Source: a virus (lineage: Duplodnaviria; Heunggongvirae; Uroviricota; Caudoviricetes). Taken from it: DNA of 64,000 nt. Below the pieces are notes generated by a model. That model had not been told where the DNA came from. It did not search any database and saw only the letters and a list, made by a program, of their open reading frames with translations. The stretch is from positions 24,841-88,840 of IMG/VR virus record IMGVR_UViG_2541047117_000001. One strand, 5' to 3'. Of the stretch, positions 3,359-56,007 are shown piece by piece. The translations under genes were made by a program, and so were the position numbers. How positions within the stretch are numbered: the stretch's first letter is position 1; the number at the start of each line of letters is the position of its first letter.

Positions 3359-3380
3359 TTCATTATTTTTTACACTTGTA
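3359..3380 (-). promoter_or_regulatory. conserved repeated element, copy 2
   Basis: exact consensus, 15 nt before the prs-like start. Confidence 0.65.
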
Positions 3381-5612: not shown

Positions 5613-5634
5613 TTCATTATTTTTTACACTTGTA
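5613..5634 (-). promoter_or_regulatory. conserved repeated element, copy 4
   Basis: exact consensus; abuts the dnaE stop codon. Confidence 0.65.
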
Positions 5635-11246: not shown

Positions 11247-11268
11247 TTCATTATTTTTTACACTTGTA
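11247..11268 (-). promoter_or_regulatory. conserved repeated element, copy 8
   Basis: exact consensus. Confidence 0.65.
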
Positions 11269-12106: not shown

Positions 12107-13408
12107 TTAATAATAACTTGGCTCATCTTTGCCTGTTACGCATTTGAAAACAGGGAATCTAAGTGACAATCCTCCTGATTCATTTTTACTCTCTTCGAAG
12201 TAGCTTACTGCAATAATCTTTCCAAGTAAAACATTTTGATTTTTCCAGTAGTATTCTCGCTCTTGGTCTGTGAATCCACTACCTACTTTAACCTCATAAT
12301 CTTCCTTGTATTGAATGACAACAGCTCCAAGTTTGCCAGTATTCTTCCCCGTACCTTCTTCGAGTCGAATAACACGCTCATCTATCTCATGCATCTTCTT
12401 AACTTTCAACAGATTGCTTGTACGCTTACATTCGTAAACTCCATCTACTCGGTTTACCATGACACCTTCTTTGTTTTCTAGAATCATTTGGTCAAGATAA
12501 TGAGCAATCATGTTTTTGTCTGAGCCAACATAAAGCAATGGAACTAATTCTAGATGTTTGAATTGTACAAATGTAGATGCGAAGATTTCCATTAACTTTT
12601 TACGACGCTTCTTGTAAATTACCTCCGAACGTCCCTCATGGAACTCATCTGCTGTTAAGATATCAAAGATATGGAACGTTAAGCCCATCTTCTCTCCGTC
12701 TTTTCTAACAACCTTTTGCGTAGCTCGGAATAGGTCATCGCTTGATAATCCCTCTTCATTTTTAAGAAGCAGTTCTCCATCATATACAAAGCCATCGGGC
12801 AATAATGCAATCTCTGCTGTAATTTCAACTAAATCTAGCACTGGTTGTCCTTGACGTGTGAAGAATTTAATCGTTCCACTCTCCTTAACACATACTACTC
12901 GGTTTCCATCTAACTTCTCTGTGACAGCAAATTCACCTGTTAACTTGTTCGCCTCATCTGAGTAAGCTTTAGCTAGTTGTACATTAAACTCAGGAATGAA
13001 TTTCTCTCCGAACGACTTATTGATTGTTTTTGCAGTAATACCGCTCTTAAATGACTTCGTGAACAGCTCTTTAAAGAATACAATCTCACTTGGAATCATT
13101 AATGTTCCCAAGAAATATTGAACTACAGCAATGTCACTATCACGACCGCTATTGTGTGCTTTTAAATATTCAAGTACATCTAACCCATTTTCAAATTTAT
13201 GCTCAGCAGGCAACTCTAAGAATCGCTCTGTGCTTAGCTTTTTATTAACCTTCTTCTTGCTTAGTCCTGTAATAACATATGGATTGTAAAGGAAGTCCAA
13301 TACATATCGTAGTTCCTCATTCTCCTTATGTTGCTTTAGGATTGTCTCCTTGACAGTTCTACTAGAGTCCGCTTTGATTCGCTCTAGAATTTCAATTACA
13401 TTTTCCAT
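12107..13408 (-). CDS. ATP-dependent DNA ligase
   Basis: 433 aa; nucleotidyltransferase motif I KLDGNR. Confidence 0.7.
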   Translation of the reverse strand: MENVIEILERIKADSSRTVKETILKQHKENEELRYVLDFLYNPYVITGLSKKKVNKKLSTERFLELPAEHKFENGLDVLEYLKAHNSGRDSDIAVVQYFLGTLMIPSEIVFFKELFTKSFKSGITAKTINKSFGEKFIPEFNVQLAKAYSDEANKLTGEFAVTEKLDGNRVVCVKESGTIKFFTRQGQPVLDLVEITAEIALLPDGFVYDGELLLKNEEGLSSDDLFRATQKVVRKDGEKMGLTFHIFDILTADEFHEGRSEVIYKKRRKKLMEIFASTFVQFKHLELVPLLYVGSDKNMIAHYLDQMILENKEGVMVNRVDGVYECKRTSNLLKVKKMHEIDERVIRLEEGTGKNTGKLGAVVIQYKEDYEVKVGSGFTDQEREYYWKNQNVLLGKIIAVSYFEESKNESGGLSLRFPVFKCVTGKDEPSYY

Positions 13409-31485: not shown

Positions 31486-31507
31486 TTCATTATTTTTTAC
31501 ACTTGTA
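31486..31507 (-). promoter_or_regulatory. conserved repeated element, copy 14
   Basis: exact consensus; abuts the nrdI start region. Confidence 0.65.
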
Positions 31508-36715: not shown

Positions 36716-36850
36716 TTTGATTACGCCTCCTCTTCATAAATTTCGTCAACTTTACTTTAAGCTTCGGATTCAGCTTAGGTGGCTTCTCTAAATACTGTTG
36801 AAGCCACTCTGCTTGCTCCTCGGTTATTGTCATCGGTTCAATCTTTCTCA

Positions 36851-37045
36851 TTACTTCTTATCCAACCACTCATGGATTTTATCGTCCACTGCATACATAA
36901 GTAGCAGTGTACAAGTCATTGAAAAACAGGTTGACATAATTGATTCCATTGCATCACTACTATCCGCAAAGCTTAAACCAAAACTCAGAACACTTACCCA
37001 TATAACAGTAATCCAGTTTCTTTCCACAAAAGCTAAAAAATTCAT
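36851..37045 (-). CDS. small membrane protein (paralog A)
   Basis: 64 aa; clear paralog of the adjacent 60-aa ORF (F-E-F/LKRN ... FSMT/S). Confidence 0.4.
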   Translation of the reverse strand: MNFLAFVERNWITVIWVSVLSFGLSFADSSDAMESIMSTCFSMTCTLLLMYAVDDKIHEWLDKK

Positions 37046-37224
37046 TTTGCACCAAACTTTCTATCAAAGAAATATAAGACTATTGACGTAAAACTCATTG
37101 AAAATATAGTTGAAAAAATGGAGTAAATTATATCGAAACTCGTTGCAAATGCCAACACGAAATTGCAAATGCATAGAGCAATCATAAAGGTGCGATTTCT
37201 TTTTAAAAACTCGATAAACTTCAT
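37042..37224 (-). CDS. small membrane protein (paralog B)
   Basis: 60 aa; tandem paralog of 36851..37045. Confidence 0.4.
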   Translation of the reverse strand: MKFIEFLKRNRTFMIALCICNFVLAFATSFDIIYSIFSTIFSMSFTSIVLYFFDRKFGAK

Positions 37225-37237
37225 CTAATACACTCCT

Positions 37238-37348
37238 CTAAAAGCGTTCGTCACACCATTCCCAAAAGTATTTAATGGCACAAACCACTGACGTCCCAAT
37301 GAGAGCTAGCCATCCTGTAATTACAACGAATCCGCCTACAAAGCCCAT
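37238..37348 (-). CDS. hydrophobic micro-protein (36 aa; paralog 1; absent from the ORF track)
   Basis: MGFVGGFVVITGWLALIGTSVVCAIKYFWEWCDERF; AGGAGG RBS 7 nt upstream. Confidence 0.4.
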   Translation of the reverse strand: MGFVGGFVVITGWLALIGTSVVCAIKYFWEWCDERF

Positions 37349-37361
37349 GTAAATCCTCCTG

Positions 37362-37472
37362 CTATCTTTTTTTCCTATTCTTAGTTTCCATCCAATGGAT
37401 GAAATAACCTATTCCGCATCCAAGAACAGCTAACCATCCTGTGATTATAATGAATCCCATTACAAAACCCAT
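37362..37472 (-). CDS. hydrophobic micro-protein (36 aa; paralog 2; absent from the ORF track)
   Basis: MGFVMGFIIITGWLAVLGCGIGYFIHWMETKNRKKR; AAGGAGG RBS. Confidence 0.4.
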   Translation of the reverse strand: MGFVMGFIIITGWLAVLGCGIGYFIHWMETKNRKKR

Positions 37473-37484
37473 TGTTTTTCCTCC

Positions 37485-37844
37485 TTAACCGTGTCTGACG
37501 CTTCCTCCTGCATCTATAGAGCCTCCAACTTTACCACATCGAACTGAACCACCTGCATCTACATCTCCGCCTACATCATGAGCTGTTACGCTACCGCCTG
37601 CATCTACATAACCTTGTACATTACGACAGGTAACAGAGCCTCTGCTTCGTAGATTTCCTAATACATTTCCATCAATAGTTGTTGGAGCATCCGTGATTAA
37701 CTGACCGATGTCTCCTTCAACCTTAATGTTTAAGTTTCCTTTTAGCCCTTCTGTTTGAAGGACACCATCAATGAAAACTGCTCCATTGCTGATTTGAATG
37801 CTATTACCGTAATACGTGTTACCGTTATATGTAATACTTCCCAT
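37485..37844 (-). CDS. beta-helix repeat protein (bactofilin-like?)
   Basis: 119 aa; five tandem ~10-residue repeats V-x-G-x-V-DAGGSV. Confidence 0.45.
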   Translation of the reverse strand: MGSITYNGNTYYGNSIQISNGAVFIDGVLQTEGLKGNLNIKVEGDIGQLITDAPTTIDGNVLGNLRSRGSVTCRNVQGYVDAGGSVTAHDVGGDVDAGGSVRCGKVGGSIDAGGSVRHG

Positions 37845-37856
37845 TTCATTCGCTCC

Positions 37857-38861
37857 TTAGTGTGCTAGAGTATCCGCATCTCGCAAGATTTCTAACATCT
37901 CGTATGTTTCATCTCCTACAAGTCGTCTTAGTCTCTTCTGACCTTTTTCACCTGCATTAAGCAGAACCATGTGGAACTGAATCAGTTTAGTGACTTGAAG
38001 GATAAAATCATCATTATGTACTGCTTTAGCAAGAATTGAGCTAGCCATTTGCGCTCCTACATTCTCATGTGAGATGAAGTTTGCATAGCGTGTTTCCTCA
38101 CCGTCACGGCTCTCAAAATTCTTACAGTATGGTTTGCCAATATCATGAAGCAGTGCAGTCCACAGCATCACTAATCGGTCATATTCACTTCCATTATCAA
38201 AGTTGTCAAAGACATATTTGTATACATGGTATACATGGCGACTCACAGAGAATGAATGGTATTTCGAATCCTGTGGCATGTTATACATGGCTAAGAACTC
38301 AGGGAAATACCCCATAAGACCTGTCATGATTTCTTCATGAGTTCCGCCACTTTGAACAATCTTCATAATGTTTCTGCGGTCTTCAATATCAAATACACCC
38401 TCTTGACGTTGAATGATATATACATCATCCCAACCTTCCTCTTTGATTGGTACATTTAAGCTCTTGTATGAGCGCTCAATCACGAAAGGTGGTACTGGTT
38501 TTCCTCTTAATCCATTATCTAAAAGAGCTACTTCAACAGCCGTATTAATGTAATACACAAACTTCATAGCACCAGTCGCTTTAAAAGTCTTATTAAGTCG
38601 TTGAAGTAATCCGATTCTACGGTTACGATTGATATTTGTTGCATCATATACAACACTTTTTCCTTGCATTAGAGCTTCCACGGTTCGCTCAAACATTAGA
38701 GCAAACACATCCTGACTATTGCGCTCATGGTCTTCACCATTTAACTCTTTACCAATCACGTCAGAGGAAAGCAGAACTGCATTATCTCTTTCTGCTAGAA
38801 GCTCTGCGAATGATGTTTTTCCGCTTGCAGGGATGCCTACCATCATCATAAATTTAAGCAT
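37857..38861 (-). CDS. pnk: polynucleotide 5'-kinase fused to an HD-domain phosphohydrolase (RNA end-healing enzyme)
   Basis: N-terminal P-loop GIPASGKTSF; C-terminal HD motif ALLHDIGKP. Confidence 0.65.
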   Translation of the reverse strand: MLKFMMMVGIPASGKTSFAELLAERDNAVLLSSDVIGKELNGEDHERNSQDVFALMFERTVEALMQGKSVVYDATNINRNRRIGLLQRLNKTFKATGAMKFVYYINTAVEVALLDNGLRGKPVPPFVIERSYKSLNVPIKEEGWDDVYIIQRQEGVFDIEDRRNIMKIVQSGGTHEEIMTGLMGYFPEFLAMYNMPQDSKYHSFSVSRHVYHVYKYVFDNFDNGSEYDRLVMLWTALLHDIGKPYCKNFESRDGEETRYANFISHENVGAQMASSILAKAVHNDDFILQVTKLIQFHMVLLNAGEKGQKRLRRLVGDETYEMLEILRDADTLAH

Positions 38862-39990
38862 CTTCTTCCTCTCCCTCTTTGATGAACTCTCTGTAGTTTT
38901 TGTAGATATACATCTTGATTACATCAATGTTAATCTCCTTGCTGTCGTAGCCTGTGAAGATTAGAGATTGATATTTCTTCTCTAGAGATTCATTATTTTT
39001 TACATTTGTAGCGAAATCTTTACGAGTCTCTGCATTAGCAAGACACTCTTCTAATATGTATTGAAGATTCGTAGTAATCGTCACAGCAAGTGCATCCCAT
39101 TGCTCTTGGAATGATTCCACTTCCTTGCGGAACTCTTCGGGAACTTGCTCGATTAATTCTTTCATTTTGCCAGTATGCCAAGCTTCTAGTTTTCGCTTGA
39201 GTGATAATCCGTAAGCTACACGGTGTACAGCCATATAATCATCGCCTTTTACCTTTAATCGCTTACCACTATCCCACTGCAATACCCAACCTTCTTCATT
39301 GGCAGGGATTTCACTCTTCATTTTGATTGCTTCATCAATGGTTAAATCTACTTGCTCAGTCACGGGCATATCTAACATTTGACCGACAGCTTTCAACGAA
39401 TCCATTGTTAAATCAATTGGAAACTTACCTCGGATGTCGATAGCTCCGATAAGAACTAAGTCAGACATTCCTTCGTAATCCACGACGATTCTTGTCTTAG
39501 GGTCGATGATTTCAACTAAAAGAGTAATTCCTCGTAGTGTTTCACGAAGCTTCTCATCTTTAATTATTTTGGTAGCATACTTTCTATCCCAAATTTCATT
39601 CGCAATAAATGCCTGCTTAGATTCGAAAGAGCCTCTAGTAGCCCAAAATAAAGCATTACCCATCATATAACTAATGCCTAATGAGCCATCGTGCTTCACT
39701 GTTAATGTCGGCGGATTACAATCACATCGTGGAATATCACGCTGATACTCTAAATTCTCATCTACATTGAAGAACTTTGGAAACGGCTTAGCAACGACTT
39801 CTAATGTATTCGTATCAAGGATTAATCCTCGTGCCATCATTGTTTCATTATTCCATCGACGGTCAACAACAGCTCGGTTTGTATAATTGAGAATTACTAG
39901 ATTCTTAAACCAAGGATGTCGTTTTTCAGCAATGTAGCCCTCTTCCTTTTCAAGTTGGAACTTCTTATAGTCCGCTAAAGTGAACTGCAT
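38854..39990 (-). CDS. rnl: RNA ligase (Rnl1-type nucleotidyltransferase)
   Basis: 378 aa; motif I KHDGSL, as in T4 RnlA KEDGSL; overlaps and is co-transcribed with pnk. Confidence 0.65.
   Translation of the reverse strand: MQFTLADYKKFQLEKEEGYIAEKRHPWFKNLVILNYTNRAVVDRRWNNETMMARGLILDTNTLEVVAKPFPKFFNVDENLEYQRDIPRCDCNPPTLTVKHDGSLGISYMMGNALFWATRGSFESKQAFIANEIWDRKYATKIIKDEKLRETLRGITLLVEIIDPKTRIVVDYEGMSDLVLIGAIDIRGKFPIDLTMDSLKAVGQMLDMPVTEQVDLTIDEAIKMKSEIPANEEGWVLQWDSGKRLKVKGDDYMAVHRVAYGLSLKRKLEAWHTGKMKELIEQVPEEFRKEVESFQEQWDALAVTITTNLQYILEECLANAETRKDFATNVKNNESLEKKYQSLIFTGYDSKEINIDVIKMYIYKNYREFIKEGEEEDA
38989..39010 (-). promoter_or_regulatory. conserved repeated element, copy 19; lies inside the RNA ligase coding sequence
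   Basis: TACAAATGTAAAAAATAATGAA, encoding ...ATNVKNNES... of the ligase; ~125 nt upstream of pnk. Confidence 0.55.
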
Positions 39991-40000
39991 TCTAGCACCT

Positions 40001-40228
40001 CTATTCTTTATTCTGTTTTTCGTACTCTTTGATAATTTGACATTTCTTCAAATACCTGTACCATGCTTTAGAACCTATCTCGTCAACAGCTTTGCATTTA
40101 GGACAGAAGCAAGTAACCATAACGATTCTTTTGTACTTCCCATAGCTACCGATGGTCTCTGTTCTTTCGTCGAGATATTTCCATTCATGTTCACATCTCT
40201 TAAACAAGTTGCTTAACCACTTGAACAT
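40001..40228 (-). CDS. zinc-ribbon protein
   Basis: 75 aa with CEHEW...CFCPKC. Confidence 0.4.
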   Translation of the reverse strand: MFKWLSNLFKRCEHEWKYLDERTETIGSYGKYKRIVMVTCFCPKCKAVDEIGSKAWYRYLKKCQIIKEYEKQNKE

Positions 40229-40232
40229 CTAA

Positions 40233-40814
40233 TTACATCTCTTTTACGTCAACTTTGTACTCAATTGAGTTACATAGCATCTTAGCGAACTTCTCAATCT
40301 CTTCTTTGACAGTACGAGTTTTAGTGAATAATGACTTGCGCTCACTCGCTTTCGCTTTCTTTCGGCTCTCTACTACTTCTACTTGAGCTTTTAAAGACTT
40401 CAATTGAGCATCTAATCCATCAAGCTCGATATCAACCTTATTTACTTCTTCTTGCATTGCTAACTCAGCAACTTCTAACTCTGTATTTAAACCTTGAATA
40501 TCTTCAAGTAAATCTTTTGCAATCTTGCGGTTTGTCTTGTCAGAATAACCGTAATCCGTTTTATATAATGTAACTAACGCTGTGTTGTCAGTATCGGCTA
40601 CTAAAATGATGTCACCGTTAATATAGAAATTTCGAGTGATATTTGACTCACCCAACTGTCCCTTCCAAATGAAGATGGCATGTTCCATCATCTTTTTGGC
40701 GTCCTCTGTAATCTTGTCATGATTTGCAGTTACGAAGACATTGATTTCCTCTTTACCTTTGATGCCCTTGATACGTTGAGCATATCGTCTTTTGCAATGT
40801 TTTGTTACGTTCAT
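40233..40814 (-). CDS. coiled-coil hypothetical protein
   Basis: 193 aa; GAGGGG RBS; motif upstream. Confidence 0.5.
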   Translation of the reverse strand: MNVTKHCKRRYAQRIKGIKGKEEINVFVTANHDKITEDAKKMMEHAIFIWKGQLGESNITRNFYINGDIILVADTDNTALVTLYKTDYGYSDKTNRKIAKDLLEDIQGLNTELEVAELAMQEEVNKVDIELDGLDAQLKSLKAQVEVVESRKKAKASERKSLFTKTRTVKEEIEKFAKMLCNSIEYKVDVKEM

Positions 40815-40828
40815 TGTTTACCCCTCGT

Positions 40829-40850
40829 TTCATTATTTTTTATACTTGCA
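40829..40850 (-). promoter_or_regulatory. conserved repeated element, copy 20
   Basis: TGCAAGTATAAAAAATAATGAA. Confidence 0.55.
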
Positions 40851-40871
40851 ATGAAGGAAGATAGCTCTCCC

Positions 40872-41015
40872 TCAGTATTGTTTAAAGAAAGTGTAATATG
40901 CACAAACAGCAAGTAATAGAAGAGTAACTACTCCCCAAAACATGCTCTTGAACAAACTCACTATACCAAGTAGAAGAGCTATAATCAATATGATTCCTAC
41001 GATTACTAAGCACAT
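40872..41015 (-). CDS. small membrane protein (47 aa; absent from the ORF track)
   Basis: [21 protein letters not shown]...; GGAGGG RBS; own sigma-A-like promoter. Confidence 0.4.
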
Positions 41016-41044
41016 ATTTAGTCCCTCCTAAAAGGTATATATTC

Positions 41045-41073
41045 ATTATATTTCACACAAAAGCATAAGTCAA
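41045..41073 (-). promoter_or_regulatory. sigma-A-type promoter (TTGACT, 17 bp, TATAAT) for the small membrane protein gene at 40872..41015
   Basis: -35 TTGACT at 41073..41068 and -10 TATAAT at 41050..41045, exact 17-bp spacer. Confidence 0.5.
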
Positions 41074-41081
41074 CAATATAT

Positions 41082-41103
41082 TTCATTATTTTTTACACTT
41101 ATT
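41082..41103 (-). promoter_or_regulatory. conserved repeated element, copy 21
   Basis: AATAAGTGTAAAAAATAATGAA; a second, degenerate copy at 41042..41060 overlaps a sigma-A-type -10. Confidence 0.55.
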
Positions 41104-41367
41104 GACCTCACCTTTAATTTTCCTTACTATAGTAGTTGAGCTTATTTTTGCTCTGATAAACTATCTATTTTTCTCTTGTTCGTGTTCTTCCCATAACAGC
41201 CACGAGCAAAAATGCAATAAGGATGATTGTATTTACAGTCATCACAAACCTATCGTGTTGGCGCACGGTGGGTTATTTTTTTGCATAAAACTCATCTTTT
41301 ACACAAGGTATATTTGTTTCCAACTATATCCATACTAAGAGAAACATACATAAAAGAGGTGTAATAT

Positions 41368-42836: not shown

Positions 42837-43100
42837 TTAATTTCGTGCGATACTTGCATTAGCCCAAAACACCGCTTCCTCAATTTTTGTAATAGCTAAT
42901 GACTTCTCACGGCTATTAGGACATAAGCCATCAATTAAGTTAGCAAAATGCAAACCTTCATTTCTAATATCTACATACTTCTCCACTTGCCCCTCTTTTG
43001 GTGGGTGATGTGTGAAGTTATTTTTCAATTGTTCTTTCATAATATTAATCTCCTCTCTATCCAAGAATGCCACTTTTAACATAAACACAGTCAAATTCAT
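42837..43100 (-). CDS. hypothetical protein
   Basis: 87-aa ORF. Confidence 0.4.
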   Translation of the reverse strand: MNLTVFMLKVAFLDREEINIMKEQLKNNFTHHPPKEGQVEKYVDIRNEGLHFANLIDGLCPNSREKSLAITKIEEAVFWANASIARN

Positions 43101-45330: not shown

Positions 45331-45352
45331 TTCATTATTTTTTACACTTGTA
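45331..45352 (-). promoter_or_regulatory. conserved repeated element, copy 23
   Basis: exact consensus upstream of the RecJ-like gene; a leader hairpin follows at 45310..45330. Confidence 0.65.
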
Positions 45353-55985: not shown

Positions 55986-56007
55986 TCATTATTTTTTACA
56001 CTTGTAA
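55986..56007 (-). promoter_or_regulatory. conserved repeated element, copy 26b
   Basis: exact consensus; a 7-bp-stem hairpin at 55944..55968 lies between the two copies. Confidence 0.65.

What the first reader, a model, noticed from the sequence alone, without database searches (positions are those of the whole stretch)
37857..39990. RNA repair pair with an unusual healing enzyme: polynucleotide kinase fused to an HD phosphohydrolase, plus an Rnl1-type RNA ligase
The ligase has motif I KHDGSL (T4 RnlA has KEDGSL). The upstream overlapping gene encodes an N-terminal P-loop kinase (GIPASGKTSF) fused to an HD domain (ALLHDIGKP). T4 Pnkp instead uses a HAD-type 3'-phosphatase. An HD domain could act as a 2',3'-cyclic phosphodiesterase/phosphatase, which would give a different end-healing chemistry for repairing tRNAs cut by host anticodon nucleases (PrrC, RloC, VapC and HEPN-type defences). 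A copy of the conserved element sits inside the ligase coding sequence at 38989..39010, about 125 nt before the pnk start. This suggests pnk can be expressed on its own.
Basis: partly seen in the sequence, partly recalled or inferred. Interest (0 to 1): 0.65.

Follow-up and report, generated by a model that had tools for sequence, protein, structure and literature searches.

The report
Phage RNA repair pair: ligase plus kinase-HD
A large Bacillus phage carries two overlapping genes, a T4-type RNA ligase and an end-healing enzyme built from a polynucleotide kinase and an HD phosphoesterase; this is most likely an ordinary phage kit for mending cut tRNAs, of a kind already described in other phages.

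Summary
[quoted passage not shown] Catalytic residues are present in all three modules, with one exception: the T4 Arg38 position of the kinase is Gly.

A 22-nt promoter-like element lies inside the ligase ORF, 127 nt before the kinase start.

The "heal and seal RNA repair" reading is supported by homology, by a pLDDT 89 model, and by gene neighbourhood. In 67 non-redundant viral loci, kinase-HD genes sit near Rnl1-type ligases, OB-fold RNA ligases or NAD+-dependent DNA ligase (LigA) in 48.

It is not unusual:
- HD-based healing enzymes are already characterised (phage RM378 PNK, Runella HD-Pnk).
- Both halves of this protein match the RM378 family best, in swapped order.
- The same gene pair is adjacent and annotated in Tsamsa- and Thrax-like Bacillus phages, where the T4/PrrC repair model has been invoked in print.
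- A 95%-identical protein is in GenBank.
- The kinase-then-HD architecture has at least 206 clusters at 50% identity.

Still untested: the enzyme activities, the host nuclease being countered, and whether the internal element really drives separate pnk expression. Verdict: new member of a known kind, low-to-moderate interest.

The parts
38854..39990 (-). Rnl1-type (T4 RnlA-like) ATP-dependent RNA ligase, 378 aa. Motif I is K99-HDGSL. It includes the region that aligns with the C-terminal part of T4 Rnl1.
   Evidence: ORF. Pfam PF09511 7e-20. phrog_562 4.8e-64. phmmer to T4 Rnl1 structures 2c5u/5tt6 at 1e-16 over residues 52-373. Invariant R54, K72, F74, K99, G102, E160, E233-G234, K246, K248 in the alignment with T4, Tsamsa, PJN02 and RM378 ligases.
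37857..38861 (-). Bifunctional end-healing enzyme candidate, 334 aa: polynucleotide 5'-OH kinase domain fused to an HD phosphoesterase domain.
   Evidence: ORF. Pfam AAA_33 plus HD. AlphaFold2 model with pLDDT 89.2 and pTM 0.89. 352 homologues with the same architecture.
38391..38861 (-). Kinase domain (about aa 1-157). P-loop G9-IPASGKT16, general-base candidate D34, D73, R119, R130. The position of T4 Arg38 is Gly37, followed by Lys38.
   Evidence: hhalign to T4 Pnkp residues 1-155, 97.6%, E 3.4e-12. Profile against PDB: CthPnkp kinase 1.5e-16, T4 Pnk 3e-9. Foldseek top hit 4jt2, E 2.5e-6. phrog_6931 positions 186-338, 3.8e-22. Arg at this position in 242 of 253 relatives.
37860..38324 (-). 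HD (HDIG) phosphoesterase domain (about aa 180-334) with candidate metal ligands H209, H239-D240, H265, H297, D330 and a conserved QDSKYH(202)SFSVSRH(209) motif.
   Evidence: Pfam HD 4.2e-8 and TIGR00277 HDIG 3.9e-9. Invariant columns in 20 homologues. Similarity to the HD of A. aeolicus A-adding enzyme 3wfp and to CCA-adding enzyme model TIGR02692. phrog_6931 positions 23-152, 1.8e-13.
38854..38861 (-). 8-nt overlap (ATGCTTAA) of the ligase stop and the kinase-HD start. A Shine-Dalgarno-like GAGGGAGAGG lies at 38868..38877, 6 nt before the ATG.
   Evidence: Sequence read directly. In the 88%-identical relatives the ligase stops 8 codons earlier and there is no overlap.
38989..39010 (-). Promoter-like conserved element TACAAATGTAAAAAATAATGAA inside the ligase ORF, 127 nt before the pnk ATG.
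   Evidence: 21 of 22 match to the consensus of 33 same-strand copies, 31 of them intergenic and typically 8-43 nt before a start codon. It is the only copy deep inside an ORF. It is identical in relatives L006-L011.
40829..40850 (-). Nearest upstream copy of the same element. It precedes ORFs 40233..40814 and 40001..40228 and then the ligase, so it is the likely start of the transcription unit that contains the pair.
   Evidence: 2 mismatches, 19 nt before the next start codon. ORFs.

Best explanation
The two genes form a phage 'heal and seal' RNA repair cassette of the T4 Pnkp/Rnl1 type.

**Proposed mechanism (inferred).**
1. [quoted passage not shown]
2. The C-terminal HD domain of the 334-aa protein uses bound metal and a water nucleophile to open and remove the cyclic or terminal phosphate, giving a 3'-OH. 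Unlike the DxDxT domain of T4 Pnkp, it forms no covalent aspartyl-phosphate intermediate.
3. The N-terminal P-loop kinase transfers the gamma-phosphate of an NTP to the 5'-OH.
4. The 378-aa Rnl1-type ligase, through a lysyl-AMP intermediate at K99, seals the healed ends.

**Expression (inferred).** The genes are co-transcribed with two small upstream ORFs from a phage-specific promoter-like element at about 40850. The kinase-HD gene has its own ribosome-binding site. It may also be transcribed alone from the element copy inside the ligase ORF.

**What is shown here:** domain identities, conservation of catalytic residues, the predicted fold, and gene linkage across many phages.

**What is inferred:** every enzymatic activity, the tRNA substrate, the identity of the nuclease, and promoter function.
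For: **Ligase.**
- Full-length homology to T4 Rnl1, including the C-terminal region.
- The positions aligned with T4 R54, K75, F77, K99, G102, E159, E227-G228, K240 and K242 are conserved.

**Kinase domain.**
- hhalign to the T4 Pnkp kinase domain at 97.6%, with K15, T16, D34 and R130 aligned to T4 K15, S16, D35 and R126.
- The roles of those T4 residues are given in PMC3592404.
- Polynucleotide kinases are the best structural matches.

**HD domain.**
- A complete H...HD...H...H...D set is invariant among 20 homologues.
- It is closest to the CCA/A-adding enzyme HD.
- The E. coli CCA-enzyme HD domain is the subject of the paper Yakunin et al. 2004 (reference seen). That it has 2',3'-cyclic phosphodiesterase and phosphatase activities is from my own memory; the title is cut off.

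**Relation to a characterised enzyme.**
- Both halves match phrog_6931 best (3.8e-22 and 1.8e-13).
- The RM378 PNK protein matches that family at 3.9e-127.
- RM378 PNK has demonstrated kinase activity and HD-borne 3'-phosphatase activity (PMC1997131).

**Gene linkage.**
- The same adjacent ligase-then-kinase-HD pair is found in Tsamsa, Izhevsk, Thrax and more than 30 other Bacillus phage records.
- Among 67 non-redundant viral loci with a kinase-HD gene, 48 have a same-strand ligase within 6 kb: Rnl1-type in 31, OB-fold plus PF09414 RNA ligase in 15, LigA in 2.
- RlaP 'RNA repair pathway' nucleotidyltransferases are adjacent in 9 of the 67.
- In T4, rnlA also lies upstream of pseT on the same strand.
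- In Runella, the ligase ORF overlaps the start of HD-Pnk, as it does here.
Against: - No activity has been measured for this protein, or, as far as I could find, for any protein with the kinase-then-HD order (one search found no literature).
- The kinase lacks the Arg aligned with T4 Arg38. It has Gly37-Lys38 where 242 of 253 relatives have Arg, so kinase efficiency or substrate choice may differ.
- The ligase scores far below the NCBIfam T4 RnlA equivalog cut-off (81.6 against 242).
- No tRNA genes and no other RNA repair genes lie in the 64-kb window.
- No cognate nuclease in the Bacillus cereus group host was identified here.
- The characterised Runella HD-Pnk is described as a DNA/RNA end-healing enzyme, and the natural substrate of its partner ligase is unknown. 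HD-Pnk linkage therefore does not prove tRNA repair.
Confidence: 0.7

Rival explanations
1. The kinase-HD protein mainly heals DNA ends (3'-phosphate and 5'-OH nicks or gaps) during phage replication, recombination or repair. Its link to RNA repair would then be secondary.
For: - The pair sits in a replication and nucleotide-metabolism module: RNR, RecJ, primase and helicase.
- Runella HD-Pnk is titled a 'DNA/RNA end-healing enzyme'.
- D. radiodurans HD-PNKP was studied as a DNA repair enzyme.
- Two viral loci pair the gene with an NAD-dependent DNA ligase.
- Related phages have an ATP-dependent DNA ligase about 1 kb downstream.
Against: - Here the gene overlaps an Rnl1-type RNA ligase. The window's DNA ligase is about 25 kb away, at about 12137..13408.
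- 46 of the 48 ligase-linked loci carry RNA ligase families rather than DNA ligase.
- The HD domain is most similar to the HD of tRNA CCA/A-adding enzymes.
Confidence: 0.12
2. In this lineage the kinase half is impaired or retargeted because the Arg aligned with T4 Arg38 is replaced by Gly. The protein would then act mainly as a 2',3'-phosphoesterase, or would phosphorylate a different substrate.
For: - Gly37 aligns with T4 Arg38.
- Arg occupies this position in 242 of 253 family members. Gly-Lys occurs only in the window protein and its two closest relatives.
- The best sequence matches in the PDB are PSTK tRNA kinases rather than Pnk.
Against: - The P-loop, D34 and R130 are intact.
- Lys38 next to Gly37 could take over the contact.
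- RM378 PNK also lacks Arg three residues after its Asp (SRDEIMM), yet it is reported as an active 5'-kinase (title of Blondal 2005, cited).
- The gene is conserved at 88-95% identity in relatives without decay.
Confidence: 0.1
3. The HD domain degrades nucleotide signals or 2',3'-cyclic nucleotides as an anti-defence function, and does not heal polynucleotide ends. Alternatively, the ligase serves a non-catalytic structural role, like the tail-fibre attachment activity of T4 gp63.
For: - HD domains include cyclic nucleotide phosphodiesterases (general knowledge).
- An Acb2/Tad1-like sponge gene lies about 3 kb upstream.
- PHROG labels the ligase family 'RNA ligase and tail fiber protein attachment catalyst'.
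Against: - The fusion to a polynucleotide kinase and the recurrent linkage to three different ligase families point to polynucleotide ends.
- All ligase catalytic residues are conserved.
- The named relatives carry siphovirus-style names (vB_BanS, vB_BcoS, vB_BsuS), so they are not expected to have T4-type long tail fibres. This point is an inference.
Confidence: 0.05

Closest known systems
Rhodothermus phage RM378 polynucleotide kinase/3'-phosphatase (RM378p110; Blondal et al. 2005, J Biol Chem 280:5188), together with the RM378 Rnl1-type RNA ligase
   Same: - One polypeptide joins a P-loop polynucleotide kinase to an HD phosphohydrolase related to the CCA/poly(A) polymerase HD.
- Both halves of the window protein hit the RM378 family (phrog_6931) better than any other PHROG.
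- That phage also encodes an Rnl1-type ligase.
   Different: - The domain order is reversed. RM378 has HD at residues 35-94 and kinase at 189-325; the window protein has the kinase first and HD second.
- Pairwise identity is only 24-31%.
- In RM378 the ligase and PNK genes are about 6.5 kb apart and on opposite strands. Here they overlap.
Runella slithyformis HD-Pnk and its upstream ligase (Munir and Shuman 2017, J Bacteriol 199:e00739-16)
   Same: - HD 2',3'-phosphoesterase plus 5'-OH kinase in one protein.
- The ligase ORF lies immediately upstream and overlaps the start of the healing-enzyme ORF.
   Different: - Domain order is HD first, then kinase.
- The context is bacterial, with Tpt1 and a methyltransferase-HIT protein alongside.
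- The partner ligase is not Rnl1-type, and it did not seal standard substrates.
Phage T4 Pnkp (pseT) plus Rnl1 (rnlA), the tRNA repair system that counters PrrC
   Same: - The order within the healing enzyme is the same: kinase first, phosphatase second.
- The ligase family is the same (Rnl1).
- The ligase gene lies upstream of the kinase gene on the same strand.
- Kinase residues K15, D35 and R126 are conserved.
   Different: - The phosphatase module is an HD metallo-enzyme, not a DxDxT acylphosphatase with a covalent Asp-phosphate intermediate.
- The T4 Arg38 position is Gly.
- The T4 genes are separated by four other genes.
Kinase-HD plus RNA ligase pairs of Tsamsa-, Thrax- and Izhevsk-like large Bacillus phages (e.g. 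Tsamsa gp174/gp175; Thrax gp101/gp100)
   Same: - Same architecture and same adjacent order.
- 41-49% amino-acid identity.
- Already annotated as polynucleotide kinase plus (t)RNA ligase and interpreted through the T4/PrrC model (PMC9703825).
   Different: - The window phage is a distant relative with no megablast-level DNA match.
- Those phages lack the TACAAGTGTAAAAAATA element.
- Several carry a second RNA ligase and a DNA ligase close by. The window has no second RNA ligase anywhere, and its DNA ligase is about 25 kb away.

Membership tests
Rnl1 (T4 RnlA-type) RNA ligases | Covalent nucleotidyltransferase motifs I, III, IV and V with a lysine nucleophile | tested here: met
   K99 (KHDGSL), E160, E233-G234 and K246/K248 align with T4 K99, E159, E227-G228 and K240/K242. 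They are invariant in a 5-sequence alignment.
Rnl1 (T4 RnlA-type) RNA ligases | Rnl1-specific N-terminal residues (T4 Arg54, Lys75, Phe77; named from memory of Wang et al. 2003) | tested here: met
   R54, K72 and F74 are invariant.
Rnl1 (T4 RnlA-type) RNA ligases | C-terminal helical domain that gives tRNA specificity | tested here: inconclusive
   The phmmer alignment runs to T4 residue 374 and TIGR02308 aligns over positions 33-372 of 373. Identity there is low, and no structure was predicted for the ligase.
Rnl1 (T4 RnlA-type) RNA ligases | Curated model thresholds | tested here: inconclusive
   Pfam PF09511 passes (72.3 against 28.3 bits). The NCBIfam T4 RnlA equivalog fails (81.6 against 242.25 bits). 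It is therefore a family member but not a T4 equivalog.
T4 Pnkp-type P-loop polynucleotide 5'-OH kinases | P-loop GxxxxGK(S/T), general-base Asp, and transition-state Arg (T4 Lys15, Asp35, Arg126) | tested here: met
   K15/T16, D34 and R130 align with T4 K15/S16, D35 and R126. Residue roles come from PMC3592404.
T4 Pnkp-type P-loop polynucleotide 5'-OH kinases | Arg three residues after the general base (T4 Arg38; its substrate phosphate contact is recalled from memory) | tested here: not met
   Gly37 occupies the position and Lys38 follows. Arg is present in 242 of 253 relatives.
T4 Pnkp-type P-loop polynucleotide 5'-OH kinases | Pnk fold | tested here: met
   The model has pLDDT 89. Best PDB matches are the CthPnkp kinase (TM 0.75 on the target), mammalian PNKP and T4 Pnk.
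T4 Pnkp (kinase plus DxDxT acylphosphatase) | C-terminal HAD/DxDxT phosphatase domain | tested here: not met
   hhalign matches only T4 residues 1-155. Pfam finds HD and no HAD domain.
HD superfamily metal-dependent phosphohydrolases | H...HD...D metal-binding signature and a model hit above threshold | tested here: met
   H209, H239-D240, H265, H297 and D330 are invariant in 20 homologues. Pfam HD scores 33.9 against 22, and HDIG 36.3 against 27.6.
HD-Pnk end-healing enzymes (RM378 PNK, Runella HD-Pnk, D. radiodurans PNKP) | HD phosphoesterase and Pnk kinase in a single polypeptide, each domain homologous to those of the family | tested here: met
   phrog_6931, which RM378 PNK matches at 3.9e-127, is the best PHROG for both halves (3.8e-22 and 1.8e-13).
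HD-Pnk end-healing enzymes (RM378 PNK, Runella HD-Pnk, D. radiodurans PNKP) | Domain order: N-terminal HD, C-terminal kinase | tested here: not met
   The window protein has the kinase at residues 5-98 and HD at 202-332. RM378 has HD at 35-94 and kinase at 189-325. Runella and Deinococcus are described as N-terminal HD.
HD-Pnk end-healing enzymes (RM378 PNK, Runella HD-Pnk, D. radiodurans PNKP) | 5'-kinase and 2',3'-phosphoesterase activities | not testable with these tools
   This needs purified protein.

The most novel reading that the evidence does not exclude
Kinase-then-HD proteins may be a distinct end-healing family with no experimental characterisation.

- The family is very widespread in large phages, with at least 206 clusters at 50% identity.
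- It arose by domain swapping relative to the characterised HD-Pnk enzymes.
- It acts as a portable 'healing' module that plugs into at least three ligase families (Rnl1, OB-fold RNA ligase, LigA) and RlaP nucleotidyltransferases.
- The window lineage has further remodelled the kinase's polynucleotide-binding site (Arg to Gly-Lys). It has also acquired a phage promoter inside the ligase gene, so that healing can be expressed without sealing. One use would be to erase the 2',3'-cyclic phosphate ends or signals produced by host RNases.
Probability: 0.15. Interest if true: 0.5.

Novelty: new member of a known kind. Interest (0 to 1): 0.25.

Why it matters
It adds a distant Bacillus cereus group phage to the list of phages carrying a tRNA/RNA repair cassette. 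That implies its hosts deploy RNA-cutting defences worth countering.

The practical value is modest. The kinase-then-HD arrangement is common in phage genomes but has apparently never been assayed. This protein or a relative would therefore be a reasonable target for defining the end chemistry of phage HD healing enzymes: which metal is used, whether a 2'- or 3'-phosphate intermediate forms, and whether RNA or DNA is preferred.

The modular pairing with different ligase families is useful for annotating such cassettes. None of this would surprise a specialist in RNA repair.

Tried and rejected
- **Megablast.** A search of the 2.9-kb region against 50,697 phage records found nothing. Relatives were reachable only at the protein level.
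- **Papers not held.** I tried to read the primary papers: Blondal 2005, Munir and Shuman 2017, Burroughs and Aravind 2016, and Wang and Shuman 2002. None is held, so their content is cited only through papers that quote them or from memory, and is marked as such.
- **Full-text search.** A search for 'Pnk-HD', 'kinase-HD' and similar terms gave no relevant paper. This is absence from a limited library, not proof that the order has never been described.
- **Generic promoter scan.** The sigma-70 scan of 36800..41200 was not enriched (14 found, 14.0 expected), so I gave no weight to its sites. The terminator-like hits inside ORFs were also disregarded.
- **Other repair components.** ARAGORN found no tRNA gene in the window. 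tblastn found no second RNA ligase, RlaP or LigA there.
- **Conservation of the internal element.** I considered using conservation of the element in close relatives as evidence of selection. I rejected it as weak, because the surrounding 250 nt are about 91% identical anyway.
- **PSTK/KTI12 reading.** I considered that the kinase might be a PSTK/KTI12-type tRNA kinase, because PSTK is the top sequence hit in the PDB. I judged this to be generic Pnk-superfamily similarity, because structural matches and PHROG families favour polynucleotide kinases.
Full report
**1. What is in the sequence**

The window is AT-rich (about 37% GC) and almost wholly coded on the minus strand.

At the stated coordinates there are two minus-strand ORFs:
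- 39990..38854: 378 aa, contains TVKHDGSLG.
- 38861..37857: 334 aa, contains GIPASGKTSF and ALLHDIGKP.

The second ORF starts 8 nt before the first ends (ATGCTTAA). It is preceded by a GAGGGAGAGG ribosome-binding site 6 nt upstream of its ATG. In the direction of transcription the ligase gene comes first and the kinase-HD gene second.

No tRNA gene lies in the window.

Neighbouring genes encode ribonucleotide reductase, RecJ, primase and a DnaB-type helicase. The pair therefore sits in the replication and nucleotide-metabolism region of a large phage.

**2. Identity of the three modules**

*Ligase.*
- Pfam RNA_lig_T4_1 7e-20 and phrog_562 4.8e-64.
- An end-to-end phmmer alignment to the T4 Rnl1 crystal-structure sequences, 1e-16, residues 52-373.
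- In an alignment with T4, Tsamsa, PJN02 and RM378 ligases, the invariant columns include R54, K72, F74, K99, D101, G102, E160, E233-G234, K246 and K248. These are the positions of T4 R54, K75, F77, K99, G102, E159, E227-G228 and K240/K242.
- It fails the strict NCBIfam 'T4 RnlA equivalog' cut-off (81.6 against 242 bits). It is an Rnl1-family enzyme, not a close T4 orthologue.

*Kinase.*
- Pfam AAA_33 6e-15.
- A profile of 20 homologues hits the Clostridium thermocellum Pnkp kinase (1.5e-16), Pnkp1 (9e-10) and T4 Pnk (3e-9) in the PDB.
- hhalign to T4 Pnkp gives 97.6% probability over T4 residues 1-155 only.
- K15/T16, D34 and R130 align with T4 Lys15/Ser16, Asp35 (general base) and Arg126. 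The roles of these residues are stated in PMC3592404.
- An AlphaFold2 model (pLDDT 89.2, pTM 0.89) has CthPnkp kinase, mammalian PNKP and T4 Pnk as its best PDB matches.
- One deviation: the residue aligned with T4 Arg38 is Gly37, followed by Lys38. Arg occupies that position in 242 of 253 family members. Gly-Lys occurs only in the window protein and its two closest relatives.

*HD domain.*
- Pfam HD 4.2e-8 (above threshold) and TIGR00277 HDIG 3.9e-9.
- Its closest named relatives are the HD domains of CCA-adding enzyme (TIGR02692, 3e-15) and the Aquifex A-adding enzyme 3wfp.
- H202, H209, H239-D240, H265, H297 and D330 are invariant across 20 homologues of 40-95% identity.
- There is no HAD/DxDxT module.

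**3. Relatives and gene context**

There is no DNA-level match in the phage collection. At the protein level:
- The kinase-HD protein is 41-49% identical to proteins of Tsamsa, Izhevsk, Thrax1-5, Skywalker, PBC2, Kirov, PJN02 and other Bacillus phages of about 160-170 kb, where it is annotated 'polynucleotide kinase', 'AAA family ATPase' or 'HD-domain containing protein'.
- The ligase is 38-45% identical to their 'RNA ligase' or 'tRNA ligase'.
- In Tsamsa the two genes are adjacent with a 4-nt overlap (gp174/gp175). In PJN02 an endonuclease gene is inserted between them.
- A 95%-identical protein is in GenBank, from Bacillus cereus group assemblies on a 153.6-kb contig. An 88%-identical one lies on a 149.9-kb contig, with the same local gene order.

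The architecture is common:
- 352 hits at E of 1e-5 or better in the 90%-clustered database.
- 206 representatives at 50% identity with E of 1e-30 or better. The 150 listed are almost all collinear proteins of about 300-340 aa.

I tested the linkage directly in 79 viral contigs that carry a kinase-HD gene, which collapse to 67 non-redundant loci:
- 48 of the 67 have a same-strand polynucleotide ligase within 6 kb.
- 31 of these are Rnl1-type, 13 of them immediately upstream.
- 15 have a different RNA ligase with an N-terminal OB fold (PF21189) and a PF09414 nucleotidyltransferase domain (Pfam check).
- 2 have NAD-dependent DNA ligase.
- RlaP ('RNA repair pathway' Pol-beta family) genes are adjacent in 9 loci.

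A healing enzyme that keeps company with interchangeable ligase families is what a heal-and-seal cassette should look like.

**4. Comparison with what is known**

The T4 paradigm is Pnkp (kinase plus DxDxT phosphatase) with Rnl1, repairing PrrC-cut tRNA-Lys. In T4, rnlA also lies upstream of pseT on the same strand, four genes away.

HD-based healing enzymes are already known:
- RM378 PNK is cited as the one PNKP with a demonstrated 3'-phosphatase activity residing in an HD domain, and a subfamily of 'kinase plus HD' PNKPs had been proposed (PMC1997131).
- Runella HD-Pnk is a characterised 2',3'-phosphoesterase/5'-kinase whose ORF is overlapped by an upstream ligase ORF (PMC6097658).

I located the RM378 enzyme (RM378p110, annotated 'probable poly A polymerase'). 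Its order is HD at residues 35-94 and kinase at 189-325.

Both halves of the window protein hit the RM378 family, phrog_6931, better than any other PHROG:
- RM378p110 itself matches at 3.9e-127.
- The window kinase half matches profile positions 186-338 at 3.8e-22, better than the T4-type phrog_505 at 4e-14.
- The window HD half matches positions 23-152 at 1.8e-13.

The window protein is therefore a domain-swapped relative of a characterised enzyme. It has the T4 order of functions but the RM378 kind of phosphatase.

For the Thrax phages, the polynucleotide kinase and RNA ligase genes have already been listed and explained by the T4/PrrC tRNA repair model (PMC9703825). A survey of jumbo phages notes that HD-like domains sometimes supply the phosphatase step (PMC7824862).

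I found no paper that describes or assays the kinase-then-HD order as such. The library is limited.

**5. The internal conserved element**

- The core TACAAGTGTAAAAAATA occurs 35 times with 3 or fewer mismatches, against 1.2 expected, always on the coding strand.
- In my own scan, 31 of 33 copies are intergenic although about 90% of the strand is ORF. They extend to a 22-nt consensus, TACAAGTGTAAAAAATAATGAA.
- Copies mostly end 8-43 nt before a start codon, and several follow terminator-like hairpins.
- There is no conserved -35-like sequence upstream.

This is the behaviour of a phage-specific promoter. That is an inference; no transcript data exist.

The copy at 39010..38989 matches 21 of 22 positions. 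It is the only copy deep inside an ORF and ends 127 nt before the pnk ATG. It cannot be a chance match. It is identical in the 95% and 88% relatives, but the flanks are nearly as conserved, so this says little.

In the protein alignment the element coincides with a two-residue insertion (VKNNES) relative to Tsamsa and PJN02. That hints it was acquired in this lineage, but the gap placement is uncertain.

Separate transcription of pnk is thus plausible and unproven. The nearest upstream copy, at 40850..40829, probably drives the whole unit: two small ORFs, the ligase, then the kinase-HD gene.

**6. Mechanism, rivals and verdict**

The best-supported reading (confidence about 0.7) is a T4-like RNA repair cassette:
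- The HD domain removes 2',3'-cyclic or terminal phosphates by metal-activated water.
- The kinase phosphorylates the 5'-OH.
- Rnl1 seals through lysyl-AMP at K99.

tRNAs cut by host nucleases are the likely substrate. RloC-type wobble-excising nucleases occur in bacilli and may resist such repair (PMC2610378).

Rivals:
- A mainly DNA-directed healing role (0.12).
- A kinase weakened or retargeted by the Arg-to-Gly change (0.10).
- Nucleotide-signal hydrolysis by the HD domain, or a structural role for the ligase (0.05).

The distinctive points are the swapped domain order, which is uncharacterised but abundant, the lineage-specific loss of the Arg38-equivalent, and the promoter-like element inside the ligase gene. 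Interest: 0.25.

Noticed in passing
window, whole length, minus strand (e.g. 3364..3380, 5618..5634, 11252..11268, 31491..31507, 45336..45352, 55990..56006): A 22-nt element, TACAAGTGTAAAAAATAATGAA, occurs 33-35 times, always on the coding strand. 31 of 33 copies are intergenic, usually 8-43 nt before a start codon, with no conserved -35-like sequence. This is probably a phage-specific promoter class. It is absent from the Tsamsa and PJN02 loci.
   Followed up: partly
window 42837..43040 (-): A 67-aa ORF is 97% identical to a gene that carries the Pfam Acb2_Tad1_hairpin domain in close relatives (L006:589-792). It is a candidate anti-CBASS/anti-Thoeris nucleotide sponge, about 3 kb upstream of the repair pair.
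   Followed up: partly
window about 12137..13408 (-): A homologue of the ATP-dependent DNA ligase (44% identity to Tsamsa gp178) lies about 25 kb from the RNA repair pair. In Tsamsa and PJN02 the DNA ligase is only about 1 kb downstream of the kinase-HD gene.
   Followed up: no
window 38750..38752 (-), codon for Gly37 of the kinase-HD protein: The residue aligned with T4 Pnkp Arg38 is Gly, followed by Lys, in the window protein and its two closest relatives. 242 of 253 family members have Arg there.
   Followed up: partly
window 37485..37844 (-): A 119-aa ORF lies directly downstream of the kinase-HD gene (phrog_3163, function unknown). It has a glycine-rich repeat, (D/G)AGGSV, in its C-terminal half. 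It is conserved in the 88-95% relatives but not in Tsamsa or PJN02, where short hypothetical ORFs occupy that position.
   Followed up: no
L008/L009:2872-3984 compared with window 38854..39990: In the 88%-identical relatives the ligase ends 8 codons earlier (370 aa). The ligase and kinase-HD ORFs do not overlap there, so the overlap is not a conserved feature even among close relatives.
   Followed up: yes
L005:3274-3996 (Bacillus phage PJN02): An endonuclease gene, probably a homing endonuclease, is inserted between the RNA ligase and the polynucleotide kinase genes.
   Followed up: no
L016:4617-5894, L060:4620-5996, L074:4622-5992, L031:5178-6008, L051:3980-5998: In other viral contigs the kinase-HD gene lies directly downstream of one of three other genes in place of Rnl1: an OB-fold (PF21189) plus PF09414 RNA ligase, an RlaP nucleotidyltransferase, or an NAD-dependent DNA ligase. 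The healing module therefore pairs with different ligases.
   Followed up: partly
L006 (GCA_002569425.1 contig NVFN01000012.1, 153.6 kb) and L009 (GCA_029696025.1, 149.9 kb): The closest relatives of the window are contigs of about 150 kb inside Bacillus cereus group genome assemblies. This would fit a phage carried in the cell, for example as a plasmid-like prophage. The related Thrax phages are described in the literature as temperate.
   Followed up: no
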